This document shows, in pieces, positions 1,740 through 39,515 of a stretch of 64,000 nucleotides of DNA. The stretch comes from Rhina ancylostomus (lineage: Eukaryota), in NCBI GenBank assembly GCA_030265395.1, contig JARFYF010000068.1, positions 11,123,337 to 11,187,336 on the forward strand. Direction: 5' to 3'. Position 1 is the first letter of the stretch, and every line of letters begins with the position of its first letter. The notes under the pieces are model-generated. The model was not told the DNA's origin. It did no database searches and worked only from the letters and a program-made list of their open reading frames with translations. Made by a program: the position numbers and the translations under genes.

Positions 1740-2015
1740 ATTATCACTTTATTCAAGGGCAGTTTGGTTGTGAGGTGAATGATGCCATACGCAATGGATC
1801 GAAACTGAAGCTGGCTTTTGATGGGGAACAAATATTTAGTTTTGATAGTGAAAAACTAGAGTGGATTGTACATTATTCAGTAACTCAGTTCCTCAAACAA
1901 AGATGGAATAATGACGTAAAAATGAACCAACATTTCAAGAACTTGTTAGAAATGGATTGTGTGGATCTATGGAAGAAATATTATTCAATTGGAAAAGCAT
2001 ACCTAACCAGAAAAA
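1740..2015 (+). CDS. MHC class I-like gene copy 1, alpha2 domain exon
   Basis: TTTCAG acceptor (AG 1738-1739), GTAAGT donor at 2016, 276 nt, phase 1/1. Encodes (D)YHFIQGQFGCEV...AFDGE...W...KQRW...LLEMDCVDLWKKY...YLTRK with the C101/C164-equivalent pair. Confidence 0.93.
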
Positions 2016-3272
2016 GTAAGTCCAGATGTCAGAACATAAAGCATTGCACTGAGTTTGTAGGTTTTGACAACTTGGTCTTCCGCGCAGTACCTCCATTAGA
2101 ACTTAGAACTGGTTAGTTCTGCAGGAGCTTATCTACCCATGACATTATCACAGCCTGACCTGCTGATGGCCTAAGTGCTGCGTTGAACAACTCAGCCTCC
2201 TTCATTTCTCTCTGTTTCTCTCTGTCCTCATTTCTCTGTTCTCTCTCTGTTACTTTCCTCATTAATTCATCGCAACAGCAAGCCTGGGTTCACCCATATT
2301 TCCCCATCATCTATGCAACTTAAAACTGACATGTTTTTCTTTCCCAGTACTGATGAAAGGCCTTTGACCTCAACTGTTAAAACGATTCCTTTTCCGACCG
2401 ATACTGCTTGACCTACCTGAATGTTTCAAGTGTTTTATTGTTTTTCTATCGGCTATAAAGATCGAAGCCTTCATTTGCTGGAATCATTTGCTTTTCATTT
2501 TGTTTGATATTTCAAAATTTAAAAAAATCAGCACTGTGATCTAACAGTGAAACAGGACTTTCTCACAGTCCCAGAAGGGTTGTATTCAAGAACATAAAAA
2601 AATGGAGGACGGGTTGTACCCTCAAGCCTGTACTGAAGAAATGTCTGATCTGCCCCAACTCTCAACTCATTTTTACAGCAATTAGTTCTGAATTCCGTGA
2701 TCCTTCAGAAATTTAACGACCTCCGTCATAAATACTTCCGGTGATCTGGTAGTAAGATCTTTCTACTGTGGTAGAAAGTGTCAGAGATTTACCAGCCTCT
2801 GTGAAAAAAAAGTTCTGCACAAGTGACAGCCCCTTATCTTGTTACTCTTTTCATTCATTTGACACACTCTCACTGGTGAAAATGCTGCCAGTTTTAGGTT
2901 GTCTCGCTTTTCGTCCTGCCCTTCATTTATAACTTGTTAATTATGTATTATTGTCAATTATATGCCCTAGTGAAAACATGTTGGGCGATACTGTGTGGAG
3001 ATTTTATGTTCTCCTTGTTCCTGCGTTCATTTCCTCTCCGTACTCCATTTCAACCAGGTGACAATGTTAATTAGTAAGTTAATTGGTTCTTGTACATTGT
3101 TCCAAATCAGAAGAAATGGGGACTGGGTCGTTGATGGTGATGAAAGAGGGAGTACAAGATAGGCGTGGAGGGTTACTTCATGGTCGCAGTGGATCGCTTG
3201 GTGTGTTTCAATGGTGTATAATTTTGTGTAAATTTTATTGAAGCTGACAATATCCAAATTTCAATTATGTAG

Positions 3273-3539
3273 TAAGCCCTGAGATCTCTATTGCTGCCCG
3301 TCCTAGTGAGCATTTGTTTCTCCACTGCGACGTGTTTGGATTTTACGCAACAGCCATCAATGTGAGCTGGTTCCGGAATGGGCAACATGTCTCCCAAATG
3401 AAATCCACTGGGACATTACCAAATGAAGATGGAACATATCAACTACATTCTGTCCTTGAGTTTGATCCGTTCGATGGGAAAGAGTATTCCTGTCATATTG
3501 AACACAGCAGCCTGCCAGGTGTGAAGACAGTTATCTGGG
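3273..3539 (+). CDS. MHC class I-like gene copy 1, alpha3 (Ig C1-set) exon
   Basis: TAG acceptor (AG 3271-3272), GTAAGT donor at 3540, 267 nt, phase 1/1. Motifs LHCDVFGFY, INVSWFRNG, LPNEDGTYQL and YSCHIEHSSL. Confidence 0.93.
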
Positions 3540-5759
3540 GTAAGTGCATGAAATATTAAATATGAATTCATATACAAATTTATAAACAGTAAATTAATTT
3601 ATCATTGTATTTGATTGTATTATGCTTGTATTTAATAGTCCAAACTGCATCTCGTATTCCAAGTTCCCTAAACTTTCTTTGTACTATGCGGTCTTCCATG
3701 TTGCTGATAGATATCAGCAACATGAAAGGGAGAGAGCGAGTCATTATTTGCTGTCGAGGTTGATAAGCATTGAATCAATCTCTGGAAAAGCAACTGTTTT
3801 GATACAATTACATTTGCAACCGCAGGGCAAAACAGTGATAGAACAAAAAGAAAGTCGTGAAGAACATGACTAATCACAAAATAAAGCAGAAGTCTCTTAA
3901 ATGGGAAATTGACACCATAATCCGTCGGGAAGTAATGGGAGGTCATGAAGGTTGAAATGTTTTGGCTACAGTCTATGCACATTATCGTAAGGTAGAAAAT
4001 TAAGGAAATTAGTGCCAGAGGTAACCAAATAACCAACACGACTGCAGTAAAACAGAAGAAGAAAATGAATATTAACATATGCTGAGTTGAATACACTCAG
4101 GGTGTACCCAGGGTGACTGCATGCCTTTAAACGGAGAAGTAACAATAAATAAGAGAGGCAAAGAATGAACTTCTGAAAAGACCAGTTGGAAACATAAACA
4201 TGGATTCCGAAATGTTCCGTAAGTTGTAAGAGTAGCGGTGAGACTGAATTTGAAAAAAAAATACTGATTGAGGCAGGGGGAATACTGAAGTACCGAGTGA
4301 ATTTATAACCACCGTCTAAATTAAGAAAGAAAAAGGACTGACATTTACGGAAAGTCAGCGTAAATTGGGATATGCATGATAGACATTCTTTAGGAGTCGG
4401 TACGAAAAATTCCAGCTGCACGCAAAGTGAATAAACAACCTTGTCTCGACACGAGACACCCGTTCTTATTATGTAAGGGGGGCAGGAAATTGCAGAGGCT
4501 CTGGCCGTACACTTCCTAGCAGCTACAGATTTAGGAATGGTGCCAGTGGATTGGAAATTTGTAAATGTACTTCAGTTGTTGCGAAAGGCATGAAAGATTA
4601 TTCATGACAAACTAGTCAGGTTAACCTTCAGGATGGAGTACGCGCTCATATTTCCTAACAACAGACGAAGGGCTGCTCAGCCCATTGGGTCTACAATGGC
4701 TCTAGTAGCAATTCTTCAATTCGATTCTCCGTTTATCCTTTCTCTCGAACGTGCTCCTTAACACCTGCAACCTCACACTCCAATCCAACCCCGTTATCAT
4801 ACTACTTAGCTACACGGCCTGTTGACAGTGATCAATTTGCCTTCCGCAAGCATTTTCCCCAATTCTGGACTTAACACCTTTGGAAACTTTGAAGGATTAA
4901 TGAAGACTTCGTTATAAATACAGAATATAATTGCCAAATAGATTACAGGGATGACGGATTTGAGTCATGTCATTGCTCGGAGAAAATCTGTTTCTTCTCC
5001 TCAAAACAGGAAAATGGTGAGCGAGTCTGCTGTAAGCATTCTGTAATTCGTGGAAACAATGTGTTAAAACTCTGTTATTTCCTAATTTCCTATTATAAAC
5101 ACACGTGCCCAACGGCCCCATAATCTTGACCAAAGATTAGCCAAGCGACTCGCCTGTATTTTATGTACGTGAGGAGGTTTTCACTTCCTTTTAAAAATGT
5201 TAGTAACAGTTTATCCCCGTCATCTAATGACTTGACCCTGAAATATATTTTCGTCAATCTTTGCTGGTTTCGGAACTTTTCCCAATCTGCGAGCTACCAC
5301 AAATCTCGATAATATTATATTCCATTTTGAAAAAAATGCTACCTACTTATTTTACTTAGCCTCTTCTTGAAATAACTTTATTTCTCAAACGAAAATGTTT
5401 ATGTTGAGAATTTCATTTTCTTGTACTTTACCATAGCGGGTTCAGACTTAGATTTCTGTCAAAAGCTAATGTAAAATTCTGTCAGTTGCTGGCCATTGTT
5501 CCCCAAATCATCGTTGAACATGAAATCAACGACCATGCTTTATTGTAAAATTTAATAGTTGGCTCCCTGCTTTGTCTTGATATCCATTGTTCGAAAGGAC
5601 CTGTCTCAAATGGTGGTGTGGGGGGAGTGATTGAGTAGCCTTTGGTGAAATGCTGCACAGTATGCATCGCTTTTGAAAGGAATGCTGCACATAAACAACA
5701 ACATATCATTCTTCATAGGTTGACCAGTATCTACGTACAATTGTATTATTTTTCTGAAG

Positions 5760-5858
5760 GAAATCAGTTGAAAGACAGACACATAGCCCTGATTGCTGTG
5801 TTTGTTCTGATCTCGCTGGTCATCATCTTCGCAGTAATTATTTGGTGGAGAAAGAAAG
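5760..5858 (+). CDS. MHC class I-like gene copy 1, connecting peptide/transmembrane exon
   Basis: Encodes GNQLKDRHIALIAVFVLISLVIIFAVIIWWRKK; GTGAG donor at 5859. The acceptor must be the AAG at 5757-5759 because the CAG used in copy 2 reads CTG here. Confidence 0.8.
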
Positions 5859-6349
5859 GTGAGGAATATGATTTAATTATGATGTACTCCTGTAACTAAA
5901 ATTCTTTCACTTGAAGAAAATGATTGATGTCAAGCAGGATAAAGAACAGATGCAGAGACCATATAACTGAAATGCCCTGACCACTCACTGTTGTTAACCA
6001 GCCCTTCTACAGGTTTCACATGTATCTAATAGTCAGACATTTGAAAACTGTTTAAACGGATTTACTCAGTTAAAATAATTAAAAAATATTAAAACATGAA
6101 TATAATAAGTTCACTTGCAGCACATCTTTGAAAATATTTTACAAAGTCAGTAAAAACAGTGAAACATGATACTTGCGCTCTCACTGTTCATTCTCCATTG
6201 GGCGGAAAGGATAGATTTTAATAGTTAGAACTTGCCGATTTCGAAGTTGCTGTTGCAACTCTAAGTGTGAGCATTGATGAAGATGCCAAAAGGTTTCTTA
6301 TGGATACCTTCAGTGAATGGGAAACGAAATTACAGCTGGGGCACACCAT

Positions 6350-6530
6350 AGAAACAGGGCAGCAGAGTGCCGGAGATCTGGGTTCAAATTTGACCTCGAG
6401 AGTTGTCGGTGTAGAATTTGCGCGTTTTCTTGTAATTACCTGTGTTTCTTCTGGGTGATTTGGTTTCCCCTTGCATTGCAAAGACGTGAGGCTTCGTGAA
6501 TTCATTGGCCCCTGTAAATTACCAACATCT
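6350..6530 (+). mobile_element. SINE remnant (V-SINE-like); paralog at ~13540-13720
   Basis: GATCTGGGTTCAAATTTGACC...GTAGAATTTGCGCGTTTTC, the same family as 160-460. Confidence 0.55.
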
Positions 6531-6903
6531 CGAAAGATATATCCTGGCCCGAGCGCAGAGCTGAAACCACAAAGGCGGCCCAGCGTCTCGACTATGTTGG
6601 AGGTTTAATGTGATTCTGCATGTTATCGACGGCTCTGACGAACACCCGCAGATGTACAGTCGAAAGCTTTCTGATTGTTTGAATTACGGCCGAGTATGAA
6701 AACTCTAATGAACAGTGGTGTACTTAGCCTGTTCCATCACGGGTACAGCTCTTCGCACCATCGATGGCATCTACAAGAAGCAACGGCTCAGGAAGGCGAC
6801 ATCNNNNNNNNNNNNNNNNNNNNNNNNNNNNNNNNNNNNNNNNNNNNNNNNNNNNNNNNNNNNNNNNNNNNNNNNNNNNNNNNNNNNNNNNNNNNNNNNN
6901 NNN

Positions 6904-6988
6904 TCGTTTTGCCTGCCATCCGGGGATTTATAAGACTCTCTTCCTCCTGAAGAAACACTTCTGGTGGCCCTCCATGGACCATCGCATG
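6904..6988 (+). mobile_element. Ty3/Gypsy pol fragment (integrase H2C2 zinc-binding region)
   Basis: Translates RFACHPGIYKTLFLLKKHFWWPSM, matching the HPG...T...L...FWWP.M pattern of Gypsy integrase N-termini; emerges directly from the N gap. Confidence 0.8.
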
Positions 6989-8664
6989 TAAAGTAGGAAT
7001 ATATCTTTACGAAAAGCACATAATAGAACAGAAACATGAATGTTGCAAAGATTCAGTCGGTGATGTCGCTGCCTCATATTCCAATGACCTGCGTTCAATT
7101 CGGAGCTCCGGTGCTATCTGCGTGGAGTTTCTACGTTCCTCCTGTGAAAGGGTTCGTGTCCTCCAGTTTCCTCCCACGTGGCAATGATACGAGGGTTTGT
7201 TAATTCATTGGTCGCTGTAAAGTTTCCCTTAATGCAAAGAGTGGGCATGTGAGAGAAAGAACAGGTTACAGAGAAAGAAGAGGCGTCGTGGGGTTGCTCT
7301 GTGAACAAGCATCGACTCGAATAGCTTCTTGCTATGTCGCAAAGAAATACAAGAACTCTGCTTTTCTGAATGGGATATCATTCAGAAGGAATACTTTTGA
7401 ATTGTCACCTCAGTTTGTGACTGTTGCAAATGAAACAGTTTAATATTTGCGACAATGTTAACTTATGTGTTGCATCTACAACACAATGCATTCCGCAGAA
7501 TTTTTGCTTTGAGTGAGATGAATGTGAATTGGCAATCGATCTAACATATTCACAGGAGAAATGAAGCTGAAGTATGAAACAGTTGATTATGATTCACAGT
7601 ACTGGTAAAACTCCCTTTGAAATGGCTTTGCCTTTTATTATTAGCGGCTTTGAAGAGTACAAGAGAAACTAATGTTAAAGAAAGGAGTCAGTCTCCGAGA
7701 ATCAAGATCCCCAATTACCTTAAGCTGCCCCTGTACGACCGGGAACAAGGCACTGTGTTAGACCGTGTTCTCAGTGGCAAGAGAAGGGTCTTAGCTTGGG
7801 TCTTTGTTGCTTTAACCCGACAGTATATAACAGAAGCCAGCGAGAGAGCTGATAATTGCCTTCTTTTAGATGGTCAGAAAACGAGACACTTGAAAAGTAA
7901 TACATAATACAATATATTCAAAACAGATTGTAAGTAAAATGTCAAATAAATCACATTTACAAATGAATGAAAAAAATGAACCAAATATATATTTTTTAAA
8001 TCCCCTGGCGAAGAACCAGCCTTGATATAAATGGAGTATCTGGTTTCTGTGCCAGGACTGACTTGGATTGAAAAGATGCATTTTGCAGCTTCATGCTGTG
8101 ATAATCCAGTCAGATTAGACATCTCCATTCTAGTCCCTGATTCCAACAATAATGGTGGTGACTGTCACTCTTTAACCCTTATTGACAGCATTTCTGTTCA
8201 GTTCCGGAAATTTAAAGAGACGTGCTGAAATAAGCAGTTCAAACAGTATCTGTCTAATGAGAAACTGAGATAACGTTTGGAAGCTCTTTGACTTGAACTG
8301 TTCACTCTGTCCCATCTTGGAAATTGCCTGATTTTCTGACAACTTGTCGCATTTTCTGTTTTTATTTCAGATTTCCACCATCTATATTTTATTTTTAAAT
8401 TTTAAGTTATTGAAGGAAATCGCTTTGACAGAACTATAGGAATGAAGCCGACCATTTGTGATTGACCTTGCTGCTAATGATTCGCAACCCGCCACGCCGC
8501 ATTGTGACAATGCGTATTGAAGATGCTTGAATCCGTTGCCAGCCTTCAGATGAAAGGATTGTCTGAGTGGAGCTTGAACCGTCGCCGTGTGGGGTCAACA
8601 CAGGTGCTCGTAAATTGCCCATTTATAATAATTATTCAACGATTGTTTGATTTGTTTCTTTCAG

Positions 8665-8940
8665 ATTATCACTATGTTCAAGGACAGTTTGGTTGTGAGG
8701 TGAATGATGCCAAGCACAGTGGATCGATATTAAAGCTGGCTGCTGATGGAGAATATGTACTGAGTTTTAATGATGAAGAATTGGAGTGGATTGTACATCA
8801 TTCAGAAGCTCAGTCCCTCAAAGAAAGTTGGGATAATAACGTAAAAATGAACCGATATTTCAAGAGATTGTTAGAAGTAGATTGTGTGGATCTATGGAAG
8901 AGATATTATTCATTTGGAAGTGCATACCTAAACAGAAAAA
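8665..8940 (+). CDS. MHC class I-like gene copy 2, alpha2 domain exon
   Basis: TTTCAG acceptor (AG 8663-8664), GTAAGT donor at 8941, 276 nt, open frame: (D)YHYVQGQFGCEV...LLEVDCVDLWKRYYSFGSAYLNRK. Confidence 0.93.
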
Positions 8941-10318
8941 GTAAGTCCAGAGGTGAGAACATAGTGCATTGCGTTGTGTTTGTAGGTATTGGCAACTTGG
9001 TCTTCCCTGCAGTACCTCTATCAGAACTGGCTAGTTATGCAGTAAATTATCTACCCATGACATTATCAGAGACTGACATGCTGATGTCCTAGAGTGCTGC
9101 ATTTAACAACTCGGCCTCCTTCATTTCTCTCTGTTTCTCTCTGTCCTCATTTCTCTCTTCTCTCTGTGTTGCATTCCTCATTAATTCATGGATTGAATTA
9201 CCCTCACAGATCCCAACAGCAAACCTGAGTTCATCCAATCTTACCCATATTTCCCCATCTTCTATGCGGCTTTAAACTGACATGTTTTTCTCTCACAGTT
9301 CGGATGAAATGCCTCTGACCTCAACTGTTAAAATGATTTCTTTTCCGATGGATACTGCCTGACCTACTGGACGTTTCAAGTGTTTTCTTGTTTTTCTATC
9401 GGCTATAATGATCGAAGCCTACTCACTGGAGCTGTGAGAGTGTTGCACTACCAGCCATGCTGCAGTGCCACCCCTTAATCCACCAATGTCAATTCTCTCT
9501 TTGCAGCTGGACATGCTGGAATCATTTGCTTTTCACCTTACTTGATATTTTAAAATGAAACATTCAGCATAGTGATGTAACAGTTAAGCAGGATTCCTCG
9601 CAGTCCCAGAAGGGATGTAATCAAGAACATAAGAAAATTGGAGGCCAGTTGGTCCCTCAAGCCTGTACTGAATAAAAGTCTGATCTGCCCGAACCCACAG
9701 CTCATTTTTTGTACCCGTTCCCATTGGCTCCGATTTCCCCGATCCTTCAGAATTTTAACGACCTCAATCATAAATACTTCCAGTGATCAATCCTCGTCAT
9801 ACCTCTGGGGTCGAGAGTGTCAGAGATTTACCAGCCTCTGCGAAAACAAACTCCACATACATGACCGGCCCCTTATTACTCTTTTCACTCATTTTATACT
9901 GTCTTACTGGCGAAAATGCTGCCAGTTTGAAGGTTGTCTCGCTTTTCGTTCCGCCCTTTATTTTATAACTTGTCAATTAATTATTATAGTCAATTATGTG
10001 CCCTAGTGAAAATATGTTTGGCGCGATTGTGTAGAGATTTTAAGTTCTCCCTGTACCCGCGTGCATTTCCACAGCGTGCTCCATTTAAGTCATGTGACGA
10101 TTATAATTAATAGGTTAATTTGTTATTGTACATTATTCCCAATGTTGGTGGGTGTCAGAAGAATTGGATTTGGTTCACTGATGGTGATGAAAGAGGGAGA
10201 ATAAGATTAGTGTGGAGGGTTACTTCATGGTCGCAGTTGATTGGTGAGTCTGGTTCTATGGTGTATAATTTAGTGCAAATTTTATCGAAGCTAAAATACC
10301 CAACTTTCAATTACCTAG

Positions 10319-10586
10319 TAACCCCTGAGGTCTTTGTTGCTGCCTGTTCTGGTGAGCATTGGTTTCTCCACTGCGACGTGTTTAGATTTTACCCAGCGGC
10401 CATCAATGTGAGCTGGTTCCAGAATGGGCAACATATCTCCGAGACGAAATCTACTGGGATATTACCCAATGAAGATGGAACATATCAACTACATTCTGTC
10501 CTTGAGTTTGATCCGTTTGATGGGAAAGAGTATTCCTGTCATATTGAACATATCAGCCTGCCGGGCGGGAAGACAGTTATCTGGGG
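10319..10586 (+). CDS. MHC class I-like gene copy 2, alpha3 exon with a +1 G at its 3' end (268 nt)
   Basis: TAG acceptor (AG 10317-10318). C1-set motifs LHCDVFRFYP, LPNEDGTYQL, YSCHIEH. ATCTGGGGGTAAG has 5 G versus 4 in copy 1, which shifts the donor phase. Confidence 0.9.
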
Positions 10587-10763
10587 GTAAGTGCGTTGAA
10601 TATTAAATATACATTCATATTCAAATTGATAAAAAGTAAATAAACGTATTTATCATTGGTGGTGTTTGTATTTATTAGTCCAAACTGCATCCCATATTCC
10701 AATTTCCCTAAACTTTCTTTGTACTATGCAGACTTGCATGTTGCTGAGAGACATCAGCAACCT

Positions 10764-10767
<4 letters not shown>

Positions 10768-10799
<32 letters not shown>
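10768..10799. repeat. (GA)n microsatellite
   Basis: Directly visible; the paralogous site in copy 1 (~3724-3741) has only a short imperfect GA run. Confidence 0.95.
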
Positions 10800-10803
<4 letters not shown>

Positions 10804-12936
10804 TGGAGAGATTATTAGCTGTCGATGTTGATGATCATTGAATCAAACTCTGGAAAAGTAACAGTTTTGAAGCAATTAAATTCGCAACCAAACGCAAAAC
10901 ATGTATGGACAAAAGGAAAGATGTGAAGAGCATGACTAATTACAAAGGAAAGCAGAAGTCTGTTAAATAGGAAATTGGCATCACAATCTATCGGGAAGTA
11001 ATGGGAGGCAATGAAGGTTGAAATGTTTGGCTACAATCTATGTACATTTTCCTAAAGAAGAAAATTAAGGAAATTAATGCTGGAGTGAACCAAATGACCA
11101 ACACGACTGCAGTAAAACAGAGCAGAACATGAGCATCAACATCTGCTAAGTTGAAAACGCAACCGACACGCATTGTGATTGCATGCCGTTAAACGGCGAA
11201 GTAACAATACACAAGAGAGTCAAAGAATGAACTTCTGAAAAAAAAAGTTGGAAACATAAACATGAATTCAGAAATGTTCTGTAAGTTGTACGAGTCGTGG
11301 TGAGACTGATCAAAAACAACAAAAAAAGTAAATTTATGTGGGCAGAGGGTATGCTGACGTACCAAGTGAATACGCTGACACAGTATAAATTAAGATAGAA
11401 AGTGGACTGACATGGATGGAAAGTCAATCTAAACTGTGATTTTGCATGGGATAGACATTGTTAACGAGTCCGTACGAAAAAATCCAGCTTCTCGTAAAGT
11501 GAATAAATCACATTGTCTCGACAGGAGGCATTAGTTCTTACTTATGTTAGTGGGGGAGGAGATGGCAGAGGCCCTGGTCGTTCTCTTCGAAACATCTAGA
11601 GATTTAGGAATGGTGCCCATCGATTGGACATTTGTAAATGCACTTCAGTTGTTGCGAAAGGCAGGACAGCAGACTGGTGAGGTTAACCTTCAGGATGGAG
11701 GACGTTCTCATTTTTCTTTACAACGGCCGAAGGTCTGTTCAGCTTCTGGGCGTCTATGGTGACTTTCGGAGCTGTTCCTGAGTTCCATTCTCCAGTTATC
11801 CTTTCTCTCGGACGTGATCCTTAATACCTGCACCGTCGCACTCCAATACAACCCCCTTCTCATACTACTTACTTGCACTGGCCGGTTTACAGTGATAAAT
11901 TTGCCTTCCGCAAGTATTTTCCCCAATTCTGGGCTTCACACCTTTGAAGACTTTGAAGGATTCATGAATGCTTTGGAGAGAATACAGAACATAATTGCCA
12001 AATAGATTACAAGAATAAGGAAATTGAGTCATGTCATTGCCCGGAGAAAAAACATTTTTGTCCTCAAAACAGAAAATATGGAGAGCGAGTCTGCTGTAAA
12101 CATTCTGTGATTCTTGGAAACAATGTGTTAAAACTCTGTTATTTCCTAATTTCCGGTTATAAACACCCTTGCCCCACGGCCCCAAATCATCCTCTTTGAC
12201 CAAAGATTAACCAAACTACTCTCCTGTATTTGATATACGTGTAGAAGTTTTCACTTGCGATTTAAAATGTTAGTGACGGTTTTTCCCCGTCATCTACTTA
12301 CTTGATCTTGAAATACATTTTCGTCAATCTTTGCTGGTTTCTGAACTTTTCCCAATCTGCGGGCTACCGCAAATCTCGATAATATTATTTGTCATTTTGA
12401 AAAAAAATGCTACCTACTTATTTTACTTGGCCTCTTCTTGGAATGACTTTATTTCTCAAACGAAATGTTTATGTTGAGAATTTGAAAATAATTTATCAAA
12501 ATATAATATGCCACACTGTGTCTTGAAATTTTCAACAGTTTTCCCAATCCACATTAGCCGCATGTTTTCAACCCTTTGTAACATTCTTGTACTTTACCAT
12601 TGGGGTTTCAGACTTAGATTTCTGTCAAAAGAAAACGTAAAATTCTATCAGTTGATGACCATTCTTGCCCAAATCATCGTTGAACATGAGATCACTGACC
12701 ATGTCTTACTGTAAAATGTAATAGTTGGCTCCCTGATTTGTCTTGATATGCATTGTTGGAAATGACCTGTCGCGAATAGTCTATGTTGGGGATTGGGGTG
12801 GGGTGTTGTTGAGTAGCCTTTGGTGAAATGATATACTGTCTGCATCGCTTTTGAAGGGGATGCTGGACATAAACAACAACATATCATTCTACATAGGTTG
12901 AACAGTACCTCATATACAATTGTATTATTTTTTCAG

Positions 12937-13038
12937 AAGGAAATAAGTTGAAAGACAGGCACATATCACTGATTACTGTGTTTGTTCTGATATCTCTGGT
13001 CATCATCTTCGCAGTAATTATTTGGTGGAGAAAGAAAG
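12937..13038 (+). CDS. MHC class I-like gene copy 2, transmembrane exon (out of frame if the alpha3 +1 G is real)
   Basis: TTTCAG acceptor, (E)GNKLKDRHISLITVFVLISLVIIFAVIIWWRKK, GTGAG donor at 13039. Confidence 0.8.
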
Positions 13039-14334
13039 GTGAGGAAAATGAGTTAATTGTGATGTACTCCTATAACTAAAATTATTTCACTTGAAGAAAA
13101 TGGTCAATGTCAAGCAGTATAAAGATCAGATGCAGAGACCAGATGACTGAAATGCCCTGACCACTCTCTGTTGTCAACCAGCTGTTGTACAGTTTTTACA
13201 TGTATCTAACAATCAGACACTTGAAAACTATTCAAACGGATTTACTAATTTAAAATAATAAAATAATTATTAAACCACTACTACAATAAGTTCACTTGCA
13301 ACACATCTTTGAAAATAATTTACAGTGTCAATGAAAGCAGTGAAGCATGGTAATTACGCTCCCACTATTCAATCTCCATTGTTCGGAAAGGATAGATTTT
13401 AACAGTTAGAACTCGCTGATTCGGAGGTTGTTTGATGAAACTGAAACTTAGTGTGAGCATTGATGAAGATGCCAAGAGGTTTCTTATGGACCCACTCGGT
13501 GAGTGGGAAACAACATTACATGTTGGGCACACTATGGAAACAGGGCAGCACAGAGCCAGAGATCTGGGTTCAATCTTGACCTCGTGTGTTGTCGGTGTAA
13601 AATTTGTGCGTTTTCCTGTAATTACATGTGTTTCTTCTGGGCGATTTGGTTTCCTCTTGCATCGCAAAGAAGTAGGGCTTAGTGAAGTCAGTGGTCGCTG
13701 TAAATTACTAACATCTCTGAGGATCTATCGTGGTCCCAGCGCATAGATAAAACCGCAAAGGAGGCGAGCCAGCGTCTCTATTTTCTTGGAAGTTTAAGAC
13801 AATTCTGCATGTTATCGAAGGCTATGACAAACATCCGCAGATTTGCAGTTGAAAGTCTTCTGATTGGTTGCATTACAGCCTGGTATCAAAACTCCAATGA
13901 ACATTACTTATCCTGTTACATCACGGGTGCAGATCTCCACACCATCGAGGACATCTGCAAGAAGCAATGTCCCAGGAAGGCGACGTCGATCATCAGCGGC
14001 CCCACTATTTGTTTTCGATGTTGCTATCAGTCAGGAGATGCAGGAGCCTGAAAACCCACTCCTCAAAGTTTAACGGCAGCTTCTTCCCCACTGACATTAG
14101 GTTCTTAAACTGAAAAAAAACCTTAACACGACCTCGGACTGTATTGGGAATTTGTTAATGAGTATTTACATATAAGGAGGGCAATGCCAGTATGAGTCGG
14201 TTGTTTTGTATGATCTCAAAGAATGTTGCAACTTTGATAAGGAACGGGATATCAACACGATTGTGAGAACATCAATACGTCTGGGGCCAATTATAGAGAC
14301 GCCGCTTCCACGACACATTTTTGTTGGCATAGAT

Positions 14335-16003: not shown

Positions 16004-17039
16004 GTAAGTTTACTTATAACATCCAGTAGTCCGGCAACCAAGCGAGTTCAGCACACCCACATTCCCAAGGATAACGAATTATAGGAGCTGTACTCTAATT
16101 AGAAGCAGTTTTACTTTATTATTTTCGTGTGATCATCTCGATATTTGTAGGTTTGAAATTTATGGGAGAAAGTCTCGCTAAGAATTGATGCTCACCTTTC
16201 ACCTGAGAGTGTGCGAGTTCACTGCTTAATATTCCACTACAAAATTTCAAAGGGTTGCACACTGTAGGATTTAGAATGTGAATTGCCGGGGGGCTTGGCT
16301 TTCAACATTCAGGGTTTCCTCCGCACAACACCATGTCACCCAGTACAGTTAGTTTTAGATGTCGGAGGCCCTGCCTTCACAGACTCGATGTGCCTTGCAT
16401 TTCCAGCTTCAAGAACAGAACAACGCAGTTTGTCTCCTTCCAACAGCAAAAGGGAATAACAACTCGCGTCATTCATAACATGCACAATTGTATTGGGTTT
16501 AATTGTCAAGTTTCATTGACTTTAAATCACTGAGCCTTGGCCAATGAAAGAAAAGGAATCCGTGACTTTGCCATTAGAAAGGGAGGAAACCAGATGTTTT
16601 GCAGTTAAAGTGGGAAAAAAATGGCATTATGCTAGGCCATTTTAATTCTGTGATTTACTCATTGTTATGATATTGTACAACCTTTAGGATTATTCTCTCA
16701 ATTAAAAAAAAGCATGGGATTTAACCTTTTAAAGTAATCAAGGCAGGGCAACAGCTGTTCTTAAACTATTTATTTGAGAAATATTAAACATGAAAATAAG
16801 ATTTATGCAACAGTGTCATATGGGATGAATGACTAGGAGAAGAAAATTTAAAAAATCTCTTCTTTCTGAGTCCATTGTTTCGTCATTTCTGCGTTGTCTA
16901 ATATTCGCTTTCATTCCTCAGAGTGAAACTGTCAAACTAACGGAAGAACTGGATCAGGAGATTCCGACAGGCTGCTGAGCAGGAACTGTAATGGATGAAA
17001 GTTGAAATGCAAAAAATGAAACATATGGAATGAGTTAAG

Positions 17040-19917: not shown

Positions 19918-20788
19918 TTACTTATTTATTAATAGAAAAATTGACGTGACTGGATATTTTACAGCATTCGTGCGCTGCTCGCTGAACTTGGACTGAGTCA
20001 CCGCATAAATAAATGTGCTGTGCAGAAACTTAAATTTAAGCATGATCCCGACACTTGAAAAGACAAGTTCAGACTCGTTGTAATCCTGTGGAGATATTCC
20101 TCTCATGGTACAAGACAAGACTTTCATTACATGCACCATCCACAAGAGGAAAAAGCTTCCGGACAGAGTGGAGAGCAATATCATAGACCTTCTCCTGCTC
20201 TCCATCTCTGGATAGCTGGAATGTCCTCGTTCTTCTCACCTATTAATCCGTTACGGACTCAACTGACCATTAAAATATGTCTAACTATCAGAGCGTTGAG
20301 CAGTAGGATTAAGGCCAATGAGAGCAACGGGAATAAAATCGAATCAAACCAGTCAAATCTTGCTCATCCAAGCTCAGTAAAATAACTAGCTTTAACACGC
20401 AGCCCACGGTACATTCTCGATTATGGCCCACTGTAAATTAGAAGGGAATATTTTTGGAACACAAGAGAACGCCGCTCTTTGTTAGAACCACAGCTTTCCG
20501 TCAGTACAATATTATGTTTTAACTTCTGACAACAAATAACATCAAAACAATCAAAGGTAAAACCAGACAGAACGGATTGTGGCAGCATGAAGTAAAGCGA
20601 AAGTAATACTGCACACAGGGGTCATGCTCAAGAAATTCGCTGGCAGATAATATAAACCGATCCTCACCGTATGACCGCAGTAATAATGGTCGAGAGCTCC
20701 GCCCCTGCCATGACCACCAGGCAGCGACTGGTGAAGCTGGATAGCCTGCACTCACCCAGGGACAAAATTGCACATGCTACTAAATTAA
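19918..20788 (-). pseudogene. GPR139/142-like GPCR A, decayed exon 2
   Basis: Acceptor TTTTTATAG, then VNLVACAILSLGECRLSSFTSRCLVVMAGAE; later ESRRRSMILLSTLSGSFFLLWMV...STFIYAVTQSKF...NAVKYP. Homologous to the intact paralogs but broken across frames; exon 1 not found. Confidence 0.85.
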
Positions 20789-21172: not shown

Positions 21173-24100
21173 TTCAGTGTCTTATTTGAATTTACATCTT
21201 AATATGGCTTGTATATGACCTTGTTTATTATTCATGGTTAAACAATATTAAAATAGATCGAGTAATTAATTTAATGAGTTTCGATGTTAAAGGACTAAAC
21301 CGTCCTGTAAAGCGAAACAAGATTTTTGCTTGTATTAAAAAGCTCAAAGTCTCAATTATTTTTGTGCAAGAAACTCACGCATGCAATTGTGATATTTTAC
21401 ATTTGTTCAGCCGATGGAGAGGGTTACAATACCATTCCTGGCTAAATCCAGAGGGGTTTCAATCTTTATAGATAATACTGTTTCATGTGTTCAACATAAG
21501 GTAATAACGGACACTAATGGTCATTTTGCTACAGTGTCAGGGAAGCTGGGCGAATTTTTGAAAGAGTTTTTGCACTTTTGCCAGATTTGAATCTTTACTT
21601 GCTGGTTCTAGGAGAAGATTTAAATTGTTGGTTCGATTGAAGGTTTGACAGGTCATCTACTAAACCAGCAGCTCTTAATAAACCAGCTTTATTTCTTCAA
21701 TCTTCTTTTAATGAAAACTGGCGTTACCGATGTCTTGCGTTTTTTTTTACATCCAGTGGACAGGAGATATTCTTTTTTTTTCTCATGTTCACCACACATA
21801 TTCCAGGATTGTTTTTTTTTATTGATCGTCAATCGACTTCATCAATCCGATCCTGTGAAAATAAAGAGGTTGCTCTTTCAGATCATGTTCCTGTGTTTTT
21901 ATCTTTCAACCTCCCCGGACTCCCTCAAGTAAATAGTTCCTGGCTTTTAAACGAACTTTGCTATCTGATAAAGATTTTCTTTAATTTTTTTTGAGAAACA
22001 AATCACTTTCTTTTTAAAAGAGAATATCCTGAGAGAGACTTATAATATTATTATATAGGATGCTTTTAATACCTATATTACAAGACAAATTATTTCTTAC
22101 GCGGCGAGCCTTAAAAATAACTAATGCAAAGAGGATTGATTTAGCCAATCAATTGAAACTTTTAGACCAAAAATATGCCTTGGATCCAGATCCCACTTTA
22201 TATAAAAGGCGAGTTGAAATTAAAACCAAATAAGATACCCTTTTAACATATCCAACTGAGAATCAACTCCGAAAAGATAAAACTCAATATTAAATCCGTG
22301 GAGATAAAACAGGTAAATTATTGGCTATTCAATTAAAAACCTCTATAGCTTGACGGCAAATCAAAGAAGTTCGCAAAGCTAATGGACAAAGGACAACAGA
22401 TGATTTAGAAATAAATGATACTTTTAGAGACTTCTATTCTAAACTTTATAGTTCTAATTCTCCTAAAGAAGATACTGTAATGAACAACTTCTTCGGCCAA
22501 TCAAATATTCCTACACTCTGTGCAGTTAACCGAAAACAATTAGATACAGTTATTACTCATAAGGAAATCACCGAGGTTATACGATCAAAGGAGTCTGGCA
22601 AGACACCGGGAACTGATGGGGATTTTTTAAACCTTTCTCTTCATTGTTTATACCTTATTTAAGTTCTGTTTCTTTTCAGATTCTTTTAAATTTGAAGGTT
22701 ACCACAATCCTTTTCTGAAGCTACCATTTCACTTATTCTTAAGAAGAACAAAACCCCAACGTAATGTTCTTCACATAGACCAATTTCTTTAATATATATT
22801 GGTATTAAAATTTTACCTAAAGTTTTGGATCGTAGATTAGAAAATATTTCACCACTAATTATAGCCGATGATCAGACGGGGTTTATCAAAAACCGTTATT
22901 GAATAATATTTATTCTACTTCTAACGAAATATCGGAATGTGTGATCTATCCAGATGCTGAGACGGCCTTTGACCGAATCGAATGGAGTTACCTACTTAAA
23001 ACTTTAAAGAAATGTAACTTTCGGCCCAAATTTACTCAATGGATTAAATTTATTTATCTCTTTCTGCCCGTGTTCTTACTAATTTTCACGTTCTGAACCT
23101 TTTAAACTTCAACTTGGAACGAGACAGGGATGTCCTTTGAGCCCTCTGCTATTTCAACTCGTACTAGAATATTTAGCTATTGCTTTTCGAGAATCTACAA
23201 AGATTGCCTGCATCTCTAGAGGAGGTACCTTCCATAAAGTTTCACTGTATGCTGATGATTTACTGCTCTTCTTTTCTAATACTGAAACTTTGTTACCTTC
23301 TATGCTTTCTTCCCGTTTTAGCCAATTTTCAGGATATAAATTGAATTTACATAAGAGCGAACTTTTCCCTTTGAACAATCTAATACCATTCAATATTAAT
23401 CTTCCTTTTAAAACTGTAAGAAATCATTTTAACATTTGGGTGCTACTATTACTAAGAATTATAAACATTTATTTAAAGATGACTTTCTCTGCCTTATTGA
23501 ATTATGTGAAAAGGATCTTACCAAAATGGTCACCCCTCACTATATCGCCGATTGGTCGCATTAATTCTCATAAAATGAATAACCTAAATTTATATATCTA
23601 TTTCAGGCTTTACTGGTTTTAATTCCTAAGTTTTTTTTTTCCTTTGAGTCAACTATCTCTTCATACATATGGGAAAATAAACATCCTCGGTTAAATAAAG
23701 TTCATTTTAATAATGCTATAAATAATGCAAGGTTTGCTTTACCCAACTTTAGGTTTTATTGCTGTCCAGTCAATATACAAAATCTTACTTTTTGGTTACA
23801 TTATATTAATCACAAAGCCTTCCCAGTATGGGTCTCTTTGGAAGTTAATTATGTCGAAAAATTATCTATTATTTCTCTGCCTGGCTCTTCACTTAGTTTA
23901 TCAGTAAATAAATTAACTGATAATTTGATAGTTAAAAATGCTTCGAGGATTTGGTTACAATTTAGAAAATGCTGTCGTTTATTGAAATTTTCTTTGTCTA
24001 GTCCAATTTTTGCTATTTTTTTCCTTTAAACTTTCCATAAGTGATATAACTTTTAAAGAATGTGGTAGAATGGGTATTACTCGTTTTCAGAATCTGTTTG

Positions 24101-24377
24101 TTGGAAGAAATTTCTTAATGTTTGGACAATTACAACTAATTATAATTTGCCAAAAGCTCACGTCTTTCGAGATTTGCAAATTAGAGATTTTCTCTTATCT
24201 CAAGTACAGACCTTTCCTATAAATCGTGTTAAGAACTTAATAGATGTAATATTTAATTTGAAGCCTTTTTATGATGCTTCAATATCTAAGATTTATAGTA
24301 GATTATCAGGAATGAATAAGGTCCCTTTAGACAAAATTAAAAACGCCTGGGAACGCGATCTGCAGATTTGAATTTTT
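21173..24377 (+). mobile_element. Decayed L1-clade LINE ORF2 (APE endonuclease + RT), 3'-truncated
   Basis: SFDVKGLN...IFVQETH (APE N-terminus), SDHVP, GKTPGTDG, DAETAFDRIEW, RQGCPLSPLLF and HKVSLYADDLLL; many stops and frameshifts. Confidence 0.92.
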
Positions 24378-27978: not shown

Positions 27979-28889
27979 TTAAATTACTCTGAACAGGTTT
28001 TTAACCAACGTAAAGGGATATTTAACAGCATTCTGCAATGATTCTCTGAACTTAGCCTGAGCCACTGCATAAATAAATGTGTTTGTGCAAGAACTCAGGC
28101 ACTGAAGCATATACCCAGTGTGTTCCATGGTGGCGAAAGGATCGTTATAATCGGTGAGCATAAACTGAACGCCTATAAATTGTGTACATATGAAATGTAC
28201 AAATGTTACCAACCATAGCAATATGAAACAGCTTGAGATAGAGACCAGTAATATGACTGATTTTCTGCGGTTCACAATTTCTGGATCATTGCAATCCTCG
28301 TTAGTTCCCTCTCCCTTAAGACCCCTTCTTATTCTACTAGCCTGTAAAATATGTCTGGTGGTCAGTGCATTAAGCAACACAATCAACAGAAATGGTGCAA
28401 ACGGTGTCAATGTAATGTCAATCATGAAATATGCAACCCATATCGGTAGACTCGAGAGGTGCGACTTCACTTTGCAGAAATATGATATATTATCAATAAT
28501 TTCCACGTGTTCATTTTCAAAGAAAATTGGAATGTTCTGTACCAGGCTTAATCCAAACACAACCAAAACAACTGTGGCCGCAGTTCTTTCTGTGCAATAT
28601 TTCCCTCTCAGCTTCTGACAACCAATGGCGATGAATCGATCGAATGTGAAAGCAACAGTTAGCCAGACTGAGCAATCAATGGCTGTAAATACCAGTGCGA
28701 TTTTGAGGCTGCAAATAGGAGTGTAATCCAAGAATGAACGTGGAAAATACATGTCATTGATCTCATACAATACCACATCAAATATTATCACCAGTAGATC
28801 TGCCACAGCCATTGCAATCATGTAACGAGTAATGCATTTGGAAAGACCACACGTCCCACGAGATAGAATCACAATCGCCATTAGATTAC
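27979..28889 (-). CDS. GPR139/142-like GPCR B, exon 2 (spliced protein 326 aa)
   Basis: TTTTACAG acceptor, phase 1, open to TAA. NLMAIVILSRG, MAVADLLV, SVWLTVAFTFDRFIAI, NRRKSVILL, FILLW, CTNTFIYA; TM1 completed by exon 1. Confidence 0.92.
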
Positions 28890-30741
28890 CTGTAAAAGCA
28901 GAACATATATAGTTAGTTAATATTCAGAAGAAGAAATGCTTCAGAGAACAAAAAGACGGAGTTCGTGTATTAACTCCAAATCTTTCGTGTTGCTACACAG
29001 TTTATTATAATCTTGCATACGGTGGGAGGATGAAATTCACTTGAGTAGAAACGGGGTGCACCCTGAAACATGATATAATTTGGCGTCGTCGTCATTTAAA
29101 GGCCCCCAAAGATAAATCGTTGCCGTAAAATTAAGCCGTATTTCCACAGACACAACCTGTCGCACAGGATGCCAATTGATCGGCCGCATTGGTAAGTATT
29201 AACTGTAACCTGTAACACTAGCTGTTAAAAACACAGGGTGGATTGCAAATGTGGAGTAGTGTAGGATGTTGCGATAGAACAAGTGGCATTTTTTTGTAAT
29301 TAGATTACTGTAAGTGGTAACAAAATCTGGTGAGAGACAAAATTGAATAACAATAACCTGTAAAACTGGACATAACCATAAGTTAATTATATTTTATGAT
29401 TTCCAGTGTCATTGGATTAAATTGGAGATTACTCTTGTTTCAACGCTCTCTTTCGAAACACGGATAAAAATGCCCACAGGAATCACTAAACGCAGATTAT
29501 ATCTCAATGAACCTTTTAATAAATGTAACAATTCGAGGAGGAAAACAGTTATTGAAATAACCCTGTGTTCTGCATGGACTGAATAAGGAAAAAAAATAGG
29601 AGCTCGTGTGTACCACGTGGCCACTCGTAGTTGATCCGTATTCAACTGACCATGGCTGAACTTCACTTCATTTTTTTCTGTACTAAACACTTTTCCCTTG
29701 ATATATCCTCATGTCTAATAAGTCCGTGTCCGTTTTACCAGAATCTTATCACGCAAAAACAGGAGCGGGTTCATGAGAACTGAATCATAACATCTCATAA
29801 AACATTCCAACACAGATAAGCTTCCAAACTTCCTTTTCGGTAACATGTATACATAAAAAATATGACATTACAACGGAAGTTTGAAGCCACCGTTCTGCAC
29901 TTTCAAGTTCAATTTGTCCCTTGGTTGCTGCACAGTTTGCACTGCAGCATCATCAATGGACGATAAGTTATTTTGTCGTCGTTAGTAAGATCAGCCTCAG
30001 AACCAAAGCAAGAGGTATAGCTCGCCAATTTTGATTTCTTAATTGGCCTGATTATTCTTCTGTGTTTCAAGTAAACATATAGTTTGCTCATGATTGAGTC
30101 TCCATCAATGATACTCAAAGGATAAGGGACTTCTCTGACGGCAGCAATTCAAATTGTTGTTTAATTAACAATTAGGAAACAAATGGCAATCTGTGGTACA
30201 CAACACAATCAAATAGAAAGTAAATAGTCCTGAATAGGTTGTCTAACACTGTGCAATGAGCCTACGTTTATCATTTGACATGGAATTGGTTCATTCCCAT
30301 AATCAGCACAGCCTTACATTTTTGCGTCCACGTGACTAAAAATTTAGTTGATATTTTTAGTGCTATTACTCCGCGTTTTCCTGCCTTTCTTTCATTCGAT
30401 AGTGCTTGCTGATGTGGATTAAGGTTTTCTAGTCAGTGTTCTGTGGGAAATCACACTACGATTGCCACTCTATACTTTGTTTCCAAACTGTACAGATTGC
30501 TGGACGCAATGCATATACAAACAGTGACGAGTTCCGACAAAATATATTAGAAACAACAAATGAAAATTCTGATTTTATCTGTGTGCTCAGTGATTAAAAT
30601 ACAATGGATTAATTTTCACTACTTTAGAAATAATAAATTGTTATGTACATCTGAACAAATAACATTCGCTGATATACAGCAAGAGCAGTAATATAGCCTG
30701 ACATACAAAATAAAGTCATCAAGTAACTGTTTCCAACTTAC

Positions 30742-36911: not shown

Positions 36912-37825
36912 TTATTTAAAACATCGAGCAAACTTAACAATGAGGCGAAAAGGGTTCTGAAGGAGACTCAGCAATTCTCTTCGGAACTTATTCTGTGCTA
37001 CTGCATAAATGAACATATTGCTGCAGGAACTCAGACACTGAAGCATGAAACCTGTTTCTTCCATGACAACAAGACCCTCATTGGGTGCTGCTAACTCAGC
37101 TTGAAAATCTGCAATTTGGGTATAAATATAATATATAAAATTTAGCAGCCACAACAAAATAAAGGAGCATGAGATGGCAAGCAATAAAATTATTGATTTC
37201 CTCCGATTCTCTATCTCCAGGTCTTTATATTTGCAATTAATATTATTGCCCCTAAGTGCCTTCCTCACTTTACTACTCAGTAGAATGTGTCTAATGGTTA
37301 AAGCATTTAGCAACAAAATCAAAAGAAATGGGGAAAATGGCGTTAAAACAATGCCAAACCAGAGGAACGCCGACCACACAGGTGAGATATAGAAGACTGG
37401 CTTTACAATACAGAAGTAAAAATGACCTTCAATTATTTCTTGGTGTTCAAATATGAAGTACATTGGAATATTTTTTAGAACAAGTAATCCACACACTGTT
37501 ATTATGCATATTTTTGCATATTTTTCAGTGCAATACTTCCCTCGCAGCCTTTGGCAACAAATTGCCACAAATCTGTCCAAGCTGAAGGAGACAGTTAACC
37601 AGACGGAACAATCAATGGCGGCAAAACCCAGGGCGAGGATAAAGCTGCAGACCGGGGTGTAGTTCAGGAAAGATTTTCCGAAGTAAACGTTATTAATTTC
37701 ATAAAATACGACGTTATCGAGGATGAACAGTAGATCCGCCATCGCCATGGCAACCATATACATGCTTGTGCATTTCGAGAGACCGCTGTTTCCTCGGAAG
37801 AGAATCACAATTGCCAGTAAGTTGG
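36912..37825 (-). CDS. GPR139/142-like GPCR C, exon 2 (spliced protein 327 aa)
   Basis: CATGCAG acceptor, phase 1. NLLAIVILFRG, MAMADLLF, SVWLTVSFSLDRFVAI, ENRRKSIILL, CSNMFIYA; intact to stop. Confidence 0.92.
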
Positions 37826-39515
37826 CTGCATGAGACAAAACCAAGTTGAACATGTGTGACTGACAGAGAAAGAGGATTATTAATATTCAATGAGTGCGTA
37901 CGGTTTGGTGGATTATCGTCTCTGCTTTTGTTCAATCGTCCTGTTTGTATATTAATTATGCAGATTATAATATCAGAGATGAGAAATTGTTTTATCAGAC
38001 CTACCAAAAGTTGTTATTACAGCTGTACAAACAGAACAGTACAACAATAAGACTTATATACTTTGACACTATTCATCCAGTATTTATTGCGATGTGGAAA
38101 CGCCAAATCTGAAATTTAATCATTCGAAGAGTCATGATGATTTATGCTTTTTTGTTTGGGCGTAAATCTGCAGGGGGTGACGATTTTCCAAAGTTATTTA
38201 ATCTCAACCCCGTAAGAATCTTGCTTCGTCAGCAACTAAGTCAATTTTCCTGATCAACACCTGTCAGGTCAGATTCAAGGTCAGATAAGTGAAGGGCTGT
38301 CACGATAATTTATTTCACGATTCGGATCAGGACTGTTCAGGATCAGCGTTGTGTTTCCCACATAGATATATTGAAACTCGAAAATTTAGAGCTCCGAACT
38401 ATCTGTGCGGACCCAGCCCATTTCTCCAAGACGCTGTACAAATATACCACAACATCATGACTGCGAAAAACGTTCAAGCATTTGTAGACTTTGAAACTTC
38501 AGAAAGATATTTATCTTTTCTTTTTTTCTGATTTTGAAAGCACACTGGGAATTGGAAGTATGCATGTCATTGAAGTTATATTGGAATCGTGGCACTCAAA
38601 TAGTCAATTAACTCATCGGTTGTCTTTTATTTATGCAGGAACATTATCACAGTGTATATAAAGTCTATTTTATTCAGTGCAACTGCCAAATAAAACATGA
38701 CACCGTCATGTACCGATAGAAGGTGATAGATGCCTAAACCGCTTTTAAAGTGCCGCCATTCGAAAGAGTATTCAGAGGAACAGCAATAGTTAGAAGTTAA
38801 GGTTTAAGGAATGAATTTTGAGAGTTTTGCGACTAAATTACTCAAGACAACTTTGCATTTTCATGTCAATTAATATAATGGAAGAACAAATGGAGATAAT
38901 TGGATGAGAGCATACATATTTAAATCTTCTAGAGCTGCAGGAGGTTACGTTACAATGATATAGACAACTGAAGCCATTGTCGGATATTATACGAATTTGG
39001 TGCTACAGTTAGTTCTGCAACCACAGAGTAACTTGTGTTTCCTCCTGACCTGTGACACTCCTCACTGCAACCTGTTGGGCTATTCTAGTATTCTTGTAAG
39101 TCTAAAAGACCTCCTCGTAAGATAATTGCTTATCACAAAAATGTTTCTTCCTGTGTTGGTAGATGCTAAAATAATGTGTGGAGTTGATCGGTTTGTATGA
39201 GCGAGTAGATCACAGAAAACTTTATGACGGAATTGTATTGGTGGGATTGTTCTGAGAGCTAGTAAGGGCTATCTGAATCAAAGGGCGTCCTTCCATGTAA
39301 TCTGAAAATCGACGTGGTGCCGAAGCAAATTCTAATATTATTAGCGAGCGCACGATCGTTGGTTACACGGGACTGAGTGCAAGCTTATTTTTAGAAAATA
39401 TGTTTTCATAAGGCTAGATTTCATGAAGGATTAAACTGGGTGACGCTTTGTACTCTCCACAAGGCAAAGAACTACAGCACATCTAAAAGAGTAAAATGTA
39501 ATGACAACAACTTAC

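What the first reader, a model, noticed from the sequence alone, without database searches (positions are those of the whole stretch)
1740..13038. Tandem non-classical MHC class I-like genes with a remodelled, hydrophobic groove
Aligned by eye to HLA-A2 numbering, both alpha2 domains lose peptide-terminus anchors: Y123 to I/V, T143 to L, K146 to R/S, Y159 to L and W167 to L, while W147, Y171 and the Cys pair remain. Residues that usually contact beta2-microglobulin are kept (H93, Q96, A117, D119, G120, and P-N-E-D-G-T-Y-Q in alpha3). The LL.x.x.C pattern before C164 recalls lipid-binding class I-like molecules such as CD1. Inference: a beta2m-binding, non-peptide-presenting class Ib family. 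It may or may not belong to a named chondrichthyan lineage (UBA, UCA, UDA, UEA).
Basis: partly seen in the sequence, partly recalled or inferred. Interest (0 to 1): 0.7.

Follow-up and report, generated by a model that had tools for sequence, protein, structure and literature searches.

The report
Decaying extra UGA copies in ray
These are two extra copies, in a ray, of UGA, an already named shark-and-ray immune gene reported to bind lipids rather than peptides; one copy is broken and the other carries a one-letter shift that would remove its membrane anchor, so the finding is real but mostly ordinary.

Summary
The lineage is already named: both genes match PDB 9CH4, 'shark nonclassical MHC class I, UGA', far better than any other structure, and nest inside ray UGA in a tree (100/99), beside one sawfish paralog. 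Gene 1 is a pseudogene as assembled: its alpha1 exon, upstream of the window, has a stop, a frameshift and a 15-base deletion. Gene 2's leader and alpha1 probably lie on two unplaced contigs and are intact, but an extra G at the alpha3 donor ends the frame before the membrane helix. A relative's contig appears to lack that base, so the damage looks recent. A canonical-type UGA copy with no stop in its visible exons lies about 140 kb upstream. Best reading: birth-and-death of UGA duplicates in the sawfish group of rays. What remains of interest is a faster-evolving UGA paralog that lacks the tyrosine sorting tail and may be secreted here. This scan has already reported UGA in other genomes.

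The parts
1740..2015 (+). Gene 1 alpha2 exon (UGA paralog). Its leader (G000 C68:11114470) and broken alpha1 exon (C68:11119934-11120175; TGA, 1-base deletion, 15-base deletion) lie upstream of the window
3273..3539 (+). Gene 1 alpha3 (C1-set) exon, phase-1 donor intact
5760..5858 (+). Gene 1 TM exon; the acceptor used by the paralogs is lost (CTG for CAG); a second AG three bases on would keep the frame
   Evidence: X1 contig 5061-5845 has 0 differences
6484..6557 (+). SINE-like stretch matching the predicted tail of the sawfish RefSeq model P0001; not shown to be an exon
6804..6903 (.). 100 N between the genes; gene 2's leader (unplaced C8425) and alpha1 (unplaced C65612) are inferred to belong at this break
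   Evidence: no contig bridges it
8665..8940 (+). Gene 2 alpha2 exon (UGA paralog)
10319..10586 (+). Gene 2 alpha3 exon with one extra G before the donor (phase 2 instead of 1)
   Evidence: X1 contig 9114-10756 has 0 differences and 0 gaps
12937..13038 (+). Gene 2 TM exon; entered out of frame it gives a stop after G-R-K, 92 bases before the exon end
13670..13746 (+). SINE-like stretch matching the predicted tail of sawfish model P0001; not shown to be an exon
16922..16978 (+). Homologue of the canonical UGA last exon, acceptor intact, tyrosine motif lost (E-stop in the TM frame; G-V-K-L-S-N-stop if joined directly to alpha3); 3' end not defined

Best explanation
The two genes are tandem duplicates of the known CD1-like class Ib gene UGA that are likely being lost: gene 1 is broken in alpha1, and gene 2 carries a one-base shift that would stop translation before the membrane helix and is predicted to trigger nonsense-mediated decay. 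Shown: UGA membership by sequence, tree and position, and the lesions in the assembly. Inferred: the ancestor of this pair was a membrane class I heavy chain that paired with beta2-microglobulin and held lipid in a hydrophobic groove, as reported for the lineage; it arose by duplication before the split from sawfish, diverged in alpha1 and lost the tyrosine sorting tail. The canonical UGA role is likely carried by the copy about 140 kb upstream (C68:10.96-10.99 Mb).
For: 9CH4_A is the top PDB hit for gene 2 alpha2 (E 4.8e-29, next 3e-10) and gene 1 alpha3 (E 5.9e-35, next 4.5e-24); its title names UGA. The printed 9CH4 rows read the same, by eye, as the rows labelled Gcirratum_UGA in the supplement. 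Tree of alpha2+alpha3, 35 rows: window genes plus sawfish XP_051899561 100/99, inside ray UGA 100/99, inside all UGA 96/98. Identity 54-77% to 20 database UGA proteins, 27-40% to the other class I rows. Lesions. X1 contigs repeat the extra G and the lost acceptor. X3's contig crosses the donor without a gap against gene 1 at 15 mismatches in 124; gene 2 without the extra base gives 12, with it 35, so that relative seems to lack the base. Gene 1 vs gene 2 dN/dS: alpha2 1.01, alpha3 0.58, TM 0.20 (TM p = 0.046 on few sites), which fits a TM exon that worked until recently. A further copy at 11.045-11.067 Mb is also broken.
Against: Gene 2's leader, alpha1, alpha2 and alpha3 are all open, so a soluble product is possible; skipping the TM exon would put the stop in the last exon and avoid decay. 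alpha2 dN/dS near 1 fits either relaxed or mixed positive selection. X1 may be the sample the assembly came from, so it is not independent, and the extra G may be one allele. The upstream copy is not shown complete: 64 N lie in its alpha3 exon and its probable last exon sits on another scaffold. Lipid binding of UGA rests on a review citing a personal communication, not on data I could read.
Confidence: 0.72

Rival explanations
1. Gene 2 makes a secreted UGA: the extra base drops the membrane anchor and the alpha1-alpha3 chain is released, with beta2-microglobulin, as a soluble lipid carrier or decoy.
For: Leader, alpha1, alpha2 and alpha3 are open with intact splice sites; the shift falls exactly at the end of alpha3; alpha3 joined to the last exon ends in a stop within that exon.
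Against: With the TM exon included the stop is 92 bases upstream of the last junction, a usual decay trigger (rule recalled). The TM exon is the most conserved part of the pair (dN/dS 0.20). A close relative appears to lack the base.
Confidence: 0.1
2. Gene 2 is a working membrane paralog in the species; the extra G is a private allele or is bypassed by a CAG acceptor 22 bases into the TM exon, giving a surface UGA without endosomal sorting, working like CD1a beside CD1b/d.
For: The sawfish orthologue XP_051899561 is modelled intact and lacks a YxxPhi tail; the alpha1 stem of this clade is long (0.30, 100/99) with a proline in the helix; X3 appears to lack the base.
Against: X1's contig shows the extra G with no alternative listed; the bypass acceptor has no pyrimidine tract next to it (sequence); the sawfish tail is a computed model that uses a SINE-like stretch.
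Confidence: 0.15
3. The genes form a new, unnamed class Ib lineage, or belong to UEA/UCA rather than UGA.
For: Extra changes relative to nurse-shark UGA: F143 to L, K146 to R/S, and a changed alpha1 helix. No sequence labelled UEA was available to put in the tree.
Against: Nesting inside ray UGA at 100/99 and 54-77% identity to UGA; the rows labelled UCA in the supplement lack the two alpha2 cysteines that these genes keep.
Confidence: 0.03

Closest known systems
Nurse shark UGA, PDB 9CH4 (released 2026-03-18); elasmobranch MHC-Ib lineage UGA
   Same: Top sequence hit; shares I/V123, hydrophobic 143, W147, L159, L167, Y171, G97 and the alpha3 motif; same clade; same MHC-Ib cluster.
   Different: Window copies have L143 and R/S146 (nurse shark F143, K146), a changed alpha1 helix, no YxxPhi tail, and coding lesions.
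Pristis pectinata XP_051899561 (P0001), one of three sawfish UGA paralogs (with XP_051899562 and XP_051899762)
   Same: 76-77% identity over alpha2+alpha3, 74% to the unplaced alpha1, same clade at 100/99; same SINE-like predicted tail.
   Different: One intact model in sawfish against two damaged tandem copies here.
CD1 (tetrapods) and elasmobranch UFA
   Same: Loss of most peptide anchors, hydrophobic groove, and in canonical UGA a YxxPhi tail; the review groups UFA and UGA as CD1-like.
   Different: Not CD1 or UFA by sequence (36% to this genome's UFA-like alpha3); PMC10751288 calls CD1-UFA orthology hard to assess and does not discuss UGA in its main text.
Classical UAA
   Same: Exon layout, cysteines, Y7, Y59, W147, Y171 and beta2m-contact residues.
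   Different: Five of nine anchors changed (84, 123, 143, 146, 159; alpha1 read from C65612); 31-40% identity; separate clade; this genome's UAA-like gene lies 1.7 Mb away.

Membership tests
UGA | Closest sequence to, and nested among, sequences labelled UGA | tested here: met
   9CH4 itself was not a row in the tree, its close carpet-shark relatives and the Leucoraja protein matching the labelled row were
UGA | Loss of peptide anchors with hydrophobic residues at 123, 143, 159, 167 | tested here: met
   by-eye mapping on supplement rows and the alignment
UGA | Location in the MHC-Ib cluster with BRD2, UDA and UFA | tested here: met
   same scaffold C68: BRD2-like 10.21-10.23 Mb, UDA-like 10.35, UFA-like 10.39, UGA copies 10.96-11.14, class II-like 12.61, UAA-like 12.80; lineage labels by eye against supplement rows
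UGA | Cytoplasmic YxxPhi motif (12 of 21 database UGA proteins examined; a common trait, not a published criterion) | tested here: not met
   gene 2 last exon gives E-stop; gene 1 last exon not found in the assembly; count
UGA | Single or low copy (PMC12562908) | tested here: inconclusive
   four copies plus one divergent relative here, three in sawfish, ten RefSeq proteins in one Rhinoraja cluster, isoforms not separated
UGA | Binds lipid and beta2-microglobulin | not testable with these tools
   lipid binding reported in PMC12562908 as a personal communication; contact residues kept; ligand and partner chains of 9CH4 not seen
Classical UAA | Nine conserved peptide-anchoring residues | tested here: not met
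   four of nine kept (7, 59, 147, 171); the list of nine is recalled
Classical UAA | Nesting with UAA sequences | tested here: not met
UBA / UDA / UFA | Nesting with this genome's UBA-, UDA- or UFA-like genes | tested here: not met
   (28-36% identity)
UEA / UCA | Nesting with labelled UEA or UCA sequences | not tested
   no such sequence could be put into a tool; the UEA paper is not held; supplement rows labelled UCA differ by eye
CD1 | Orthology to tetrapod CD1 | tested here: inconclusive
   CD1 is absent from the top 60 alpha2 hits; no CD1 row in the tree

The most novel reading that the evidence does not exclude
Sawfish-group rays carry a third UGA paralog with a reshaped alpha1 helix and no endosomal sorting tail, and in this species one copy has become a secreted, lipid-carrying class I molecule through a single base added at the alpha3 donor.
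Probability: 0.1. Interest if true: 0.5.

Novelty: new member of a known kind. Interest (0 to 1): 0.22.

Why it matters
UGA is one of two CD1-like lineages proposed to place lipid presentation at the base of jawed vertebrates, and it is described as single or low copy. This locus shows it duplicating, diverging and decaying in rays, with loss of the sorting tail in the derived copies, a possible parallel to CD1 isoforms that traffic differently. That is a useful footnote for shark and ray MHC work, not a new system. A secreted UGA would matter more, but nothing here shows it is made.

Tried and rejected
A DYENI match downstream of the 11.06 Mb copy, homologous to window 14259, looked like the tail exon; rejected, because the acceptor is out of phase, the frame is not kept in the upstream copy, and the true last exon was then found at 16922. 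No contig of X1-X4 was listed that bridges C65612 to the window. No RNA holder listed, which says nothing about expression. X1 contig depth is about 6 on gene 1 and 9-14 on gene 2; the tool says this is no copy number, so it is not used. The AlphaFold model is of the sawfish orthologue, a stand-in, and is weak (pLDDT 67.9, pTM 0.46, rmsd 8.9 to 9CH4); it served only to read the entry title, not to judge the groove. No beta2-microglobulin exon was found in the 17 stretches scanned at C68:10.18-10.35 Mb; the assembly has many gaps. The profile search returned unnamed proteins and was not used further. No primary paper on UGA came up in searches; PMC8454915 (UEA) and PMC7002201 (UDA) are not held. 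No complex prediction was run.

Full report
Observation. The window holds two tandem partial class I genes on the + strand. Gene 1 has alpha2 1740-2015, alpha3 3273-3539 and TM 5760-5858. Gene 2 has alpha2 8665-8940, alpha3 10319-10586 and TM 12937-13038. The units are 80.5-84% identical, introns included. Pfam confirms the domains.

Identity. Gene 2 alpha2 and gene 1 alpha3 both hit PDB 9CH4_A first by a wide margin, and the sawfish orthologue P0001 hits it at E 4e-106. The entry title is 'Crystal structure of shark nonclassical MHC CLASS I, UGA', released 2026-03-18. The 9CH4 rows printed read the same as the rows labelled Gcirratum_UGA in Supplemental File 10 of PMC10751288, and the Leucoraja hit P0005 nearly matches Lerinacea_UGA. 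[quoted passage not shown] Nurse-shark UGA has I123, F143, K146, W147, L159, L167 and Y171, so most of the remodelled groove is the lineage's known state.

Tree and position. In a 35-row alpha2+alpha3 tree both genes group with sawfish XP_051899561 (100/99), inside ray UGA (100/99), inside all UGA (96/98); the UAA-, UBA-, UDA- and UFA-like rows fall outside. Three rows were under half filled and none was dropped; CD1, UEA and 9CH4 were not rows. Identities are 54-77% to 20 database UGA proteins and 27-40% to the other class I rows. The window is C68:11123337-11187336. The same scaffold carries UBA-like (9.75 Mb), BRD2-like (10.22), UDA-like (10.35), UFA-like (10.39), class II-like (12.61) and UAA-like (12.80) genes, which fits the elasmobranch MHC layout described in PMC10751288. 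Two more UGA copies lie upstream: copy A (10.96-10.99 Mb), which pairs with sawfish XP_051899562 (93/86), and copy B (11.045-11.067 Mb), which pairs with XP_051899762 (100/99) and is broken. The three paralog types therefore predate the split from sawfish; the organism is a ray close to sawfish by these homologues.

Gene 1 is broken. Its alpha1 exon, 3.2-3.4 kb upstream of the window, has a TGA, a one-base deletion and a 15-base deletion. Its usual TM acceptor is lost, though a second AG three bases on would keep the frame. No last exon for it was found in the assembly: the DNA search gave 2 matches, gene 2's and copy B's. The alpha1 lesions were not checked against reads.

Gene 2 is nearly whole. 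An intact alpha1 exon lies on unplaced contig C65612 and an intact leader on unplaced C8425. Each is 76-86% identical to gene 1's upstream DNA, they tile it without overlap, and each is the only extra copy listed at that level. The alpha1 groups with XP_051899561 (100/99). Their place in the gap at 6804-6903 is inferred; no contig bridges it. The alpha3 exon has one extra G before the donor, so the TM exon is entered out of frame and a stop follows after G-R-K, 92 bases before that exon's end. One X1 contig spans this place with no difference, but X1 may be the assembly's own sample. A contig of X3, another organism about 96% alike, runs through the donor without a gap against gene 1, which fits a gene 2 orthologue that lacks the base.

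Tails. Twelve of 21 database UGA proteins examined end in a YxxPhi motif; the others include computed models with other tails. A pattern search found one canonical last exon in this genome, on scaffold C84 between N runs, with a good acceptor and YENI. Its flanks match window 15.3-17.8 kb at about 65%, so it is probably copy A's exon placed on the wrong scaffold. The matching exon of gene 2 starts at 16922 and has lost the motif. The tail modelled for the sawfish orthologue comes from a repeated, SINE-like stretch (17 hits in 677,610 bases held) and has no YxxPhi either.

Mechanism. Shown: UGA membership, tandem duplication, the lesions, loss of the tail motif. Inferred from lineage reports and recalled CD1 biology: canonical UGA pairs with beta2-microglobulin, loads lipid and recycles through endosomes by its tyrosine motif; the derived paralog would stay mostly at the surface and may prefer other lipids, given its long alpha1 stem (0.30) and a proline in the alpha1 helix. 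Between genes 1 and 2 dN/dS is 1.01 in alpha2, 0.58 in alpha3 and 0.20 in the TM exon (TM p = 0.046), which suggests a membrane protein until recently. I put loss of both copies at 0.72, a working membrane gene 2 in other individuals at 0.15, a secreted gene 2 product at 0.10 and a new lineage at 0.03.

Literature seen. PMC10751288: main text parts 1-3 of 7, term passages, and supplement parts 18, 97 and 98 of 98. PMC12562908: term passages only. The UEA and UDA papers were not held, and figures could not be seen, so Fig. 3 of PMC10751288 may already label these sawfish copies. No primary UGA paper came up in searches. Four earlier notes of this scan concern UGA or a sister gene in other genomes; I had reached UGA before that look-up.

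Verdict. A real feature and new members of a known lineage, both damaged here. Interest 0.22.

Noticed in passing
L023:625-882 and 3616-3885 (G000 C68:10903961-10907221): A divergent class I gene just upstream of the UGA copies: alpha1 44% to shark UGA with a UGA-like helix motif, sister to all UGA in the trees (96/94 in alpha1, 91/84 in alpha2), alpha2 closest to MR1 among solved structures. Its alpha3 was not found.
   Followed up: partly
L040 / G000 C84:112424081-112424119 (-): Canonical UGA last exon with a YENI motif on a different scaffold, between N runs and with no other class I exon in the 40 kb fetched; probably misplaced in scaffolding.
   Followed up: partly
window 27982-28923 (-), 36915-37886 (-), 47188-48228 (-), 57594-58469 (+), fragment 19921-20235 (-): Array of rhodopsin-family receptor ORFs of the GPR139-like kind next to the UGA genes (two confirmed as 7tm_1). 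A little-skate RefSeq model (P0004) fuses UGA to a receptor resembling the 57594 one, which suggests the neighbourhood is shared.
   Followed up: partly
P0003 cluster: Ten near-identical UGA RefSeq proteins in Rhinoraja longicauda, differing mostly in alpha1; a separate expansion in a skate, against the description of UGA as single or low copy. Isoforms were not separated from loci.
   Followed up: no
L007-L008 (G000 C68:11045506-11067500): Copy B, orthologue of sawfish XP_051899762, has a frameshift in alpha1, a stop in alpha2 and a frameshift in the TM exon; in sawfish it is modelled intact with a strongly changed alpha1 helix.
   Followed up: partly
window 21190-24370: Degenerate LINE-like reverse transcriptase fragments, recognised by eye from the ORF list.
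   Followed up: no
L033, L034, L035, L036: Unplaced contigs with a second UFA-like alpha1, a second UBA-like alpha2 and two class II beta2-like exons.
   Followed up: no
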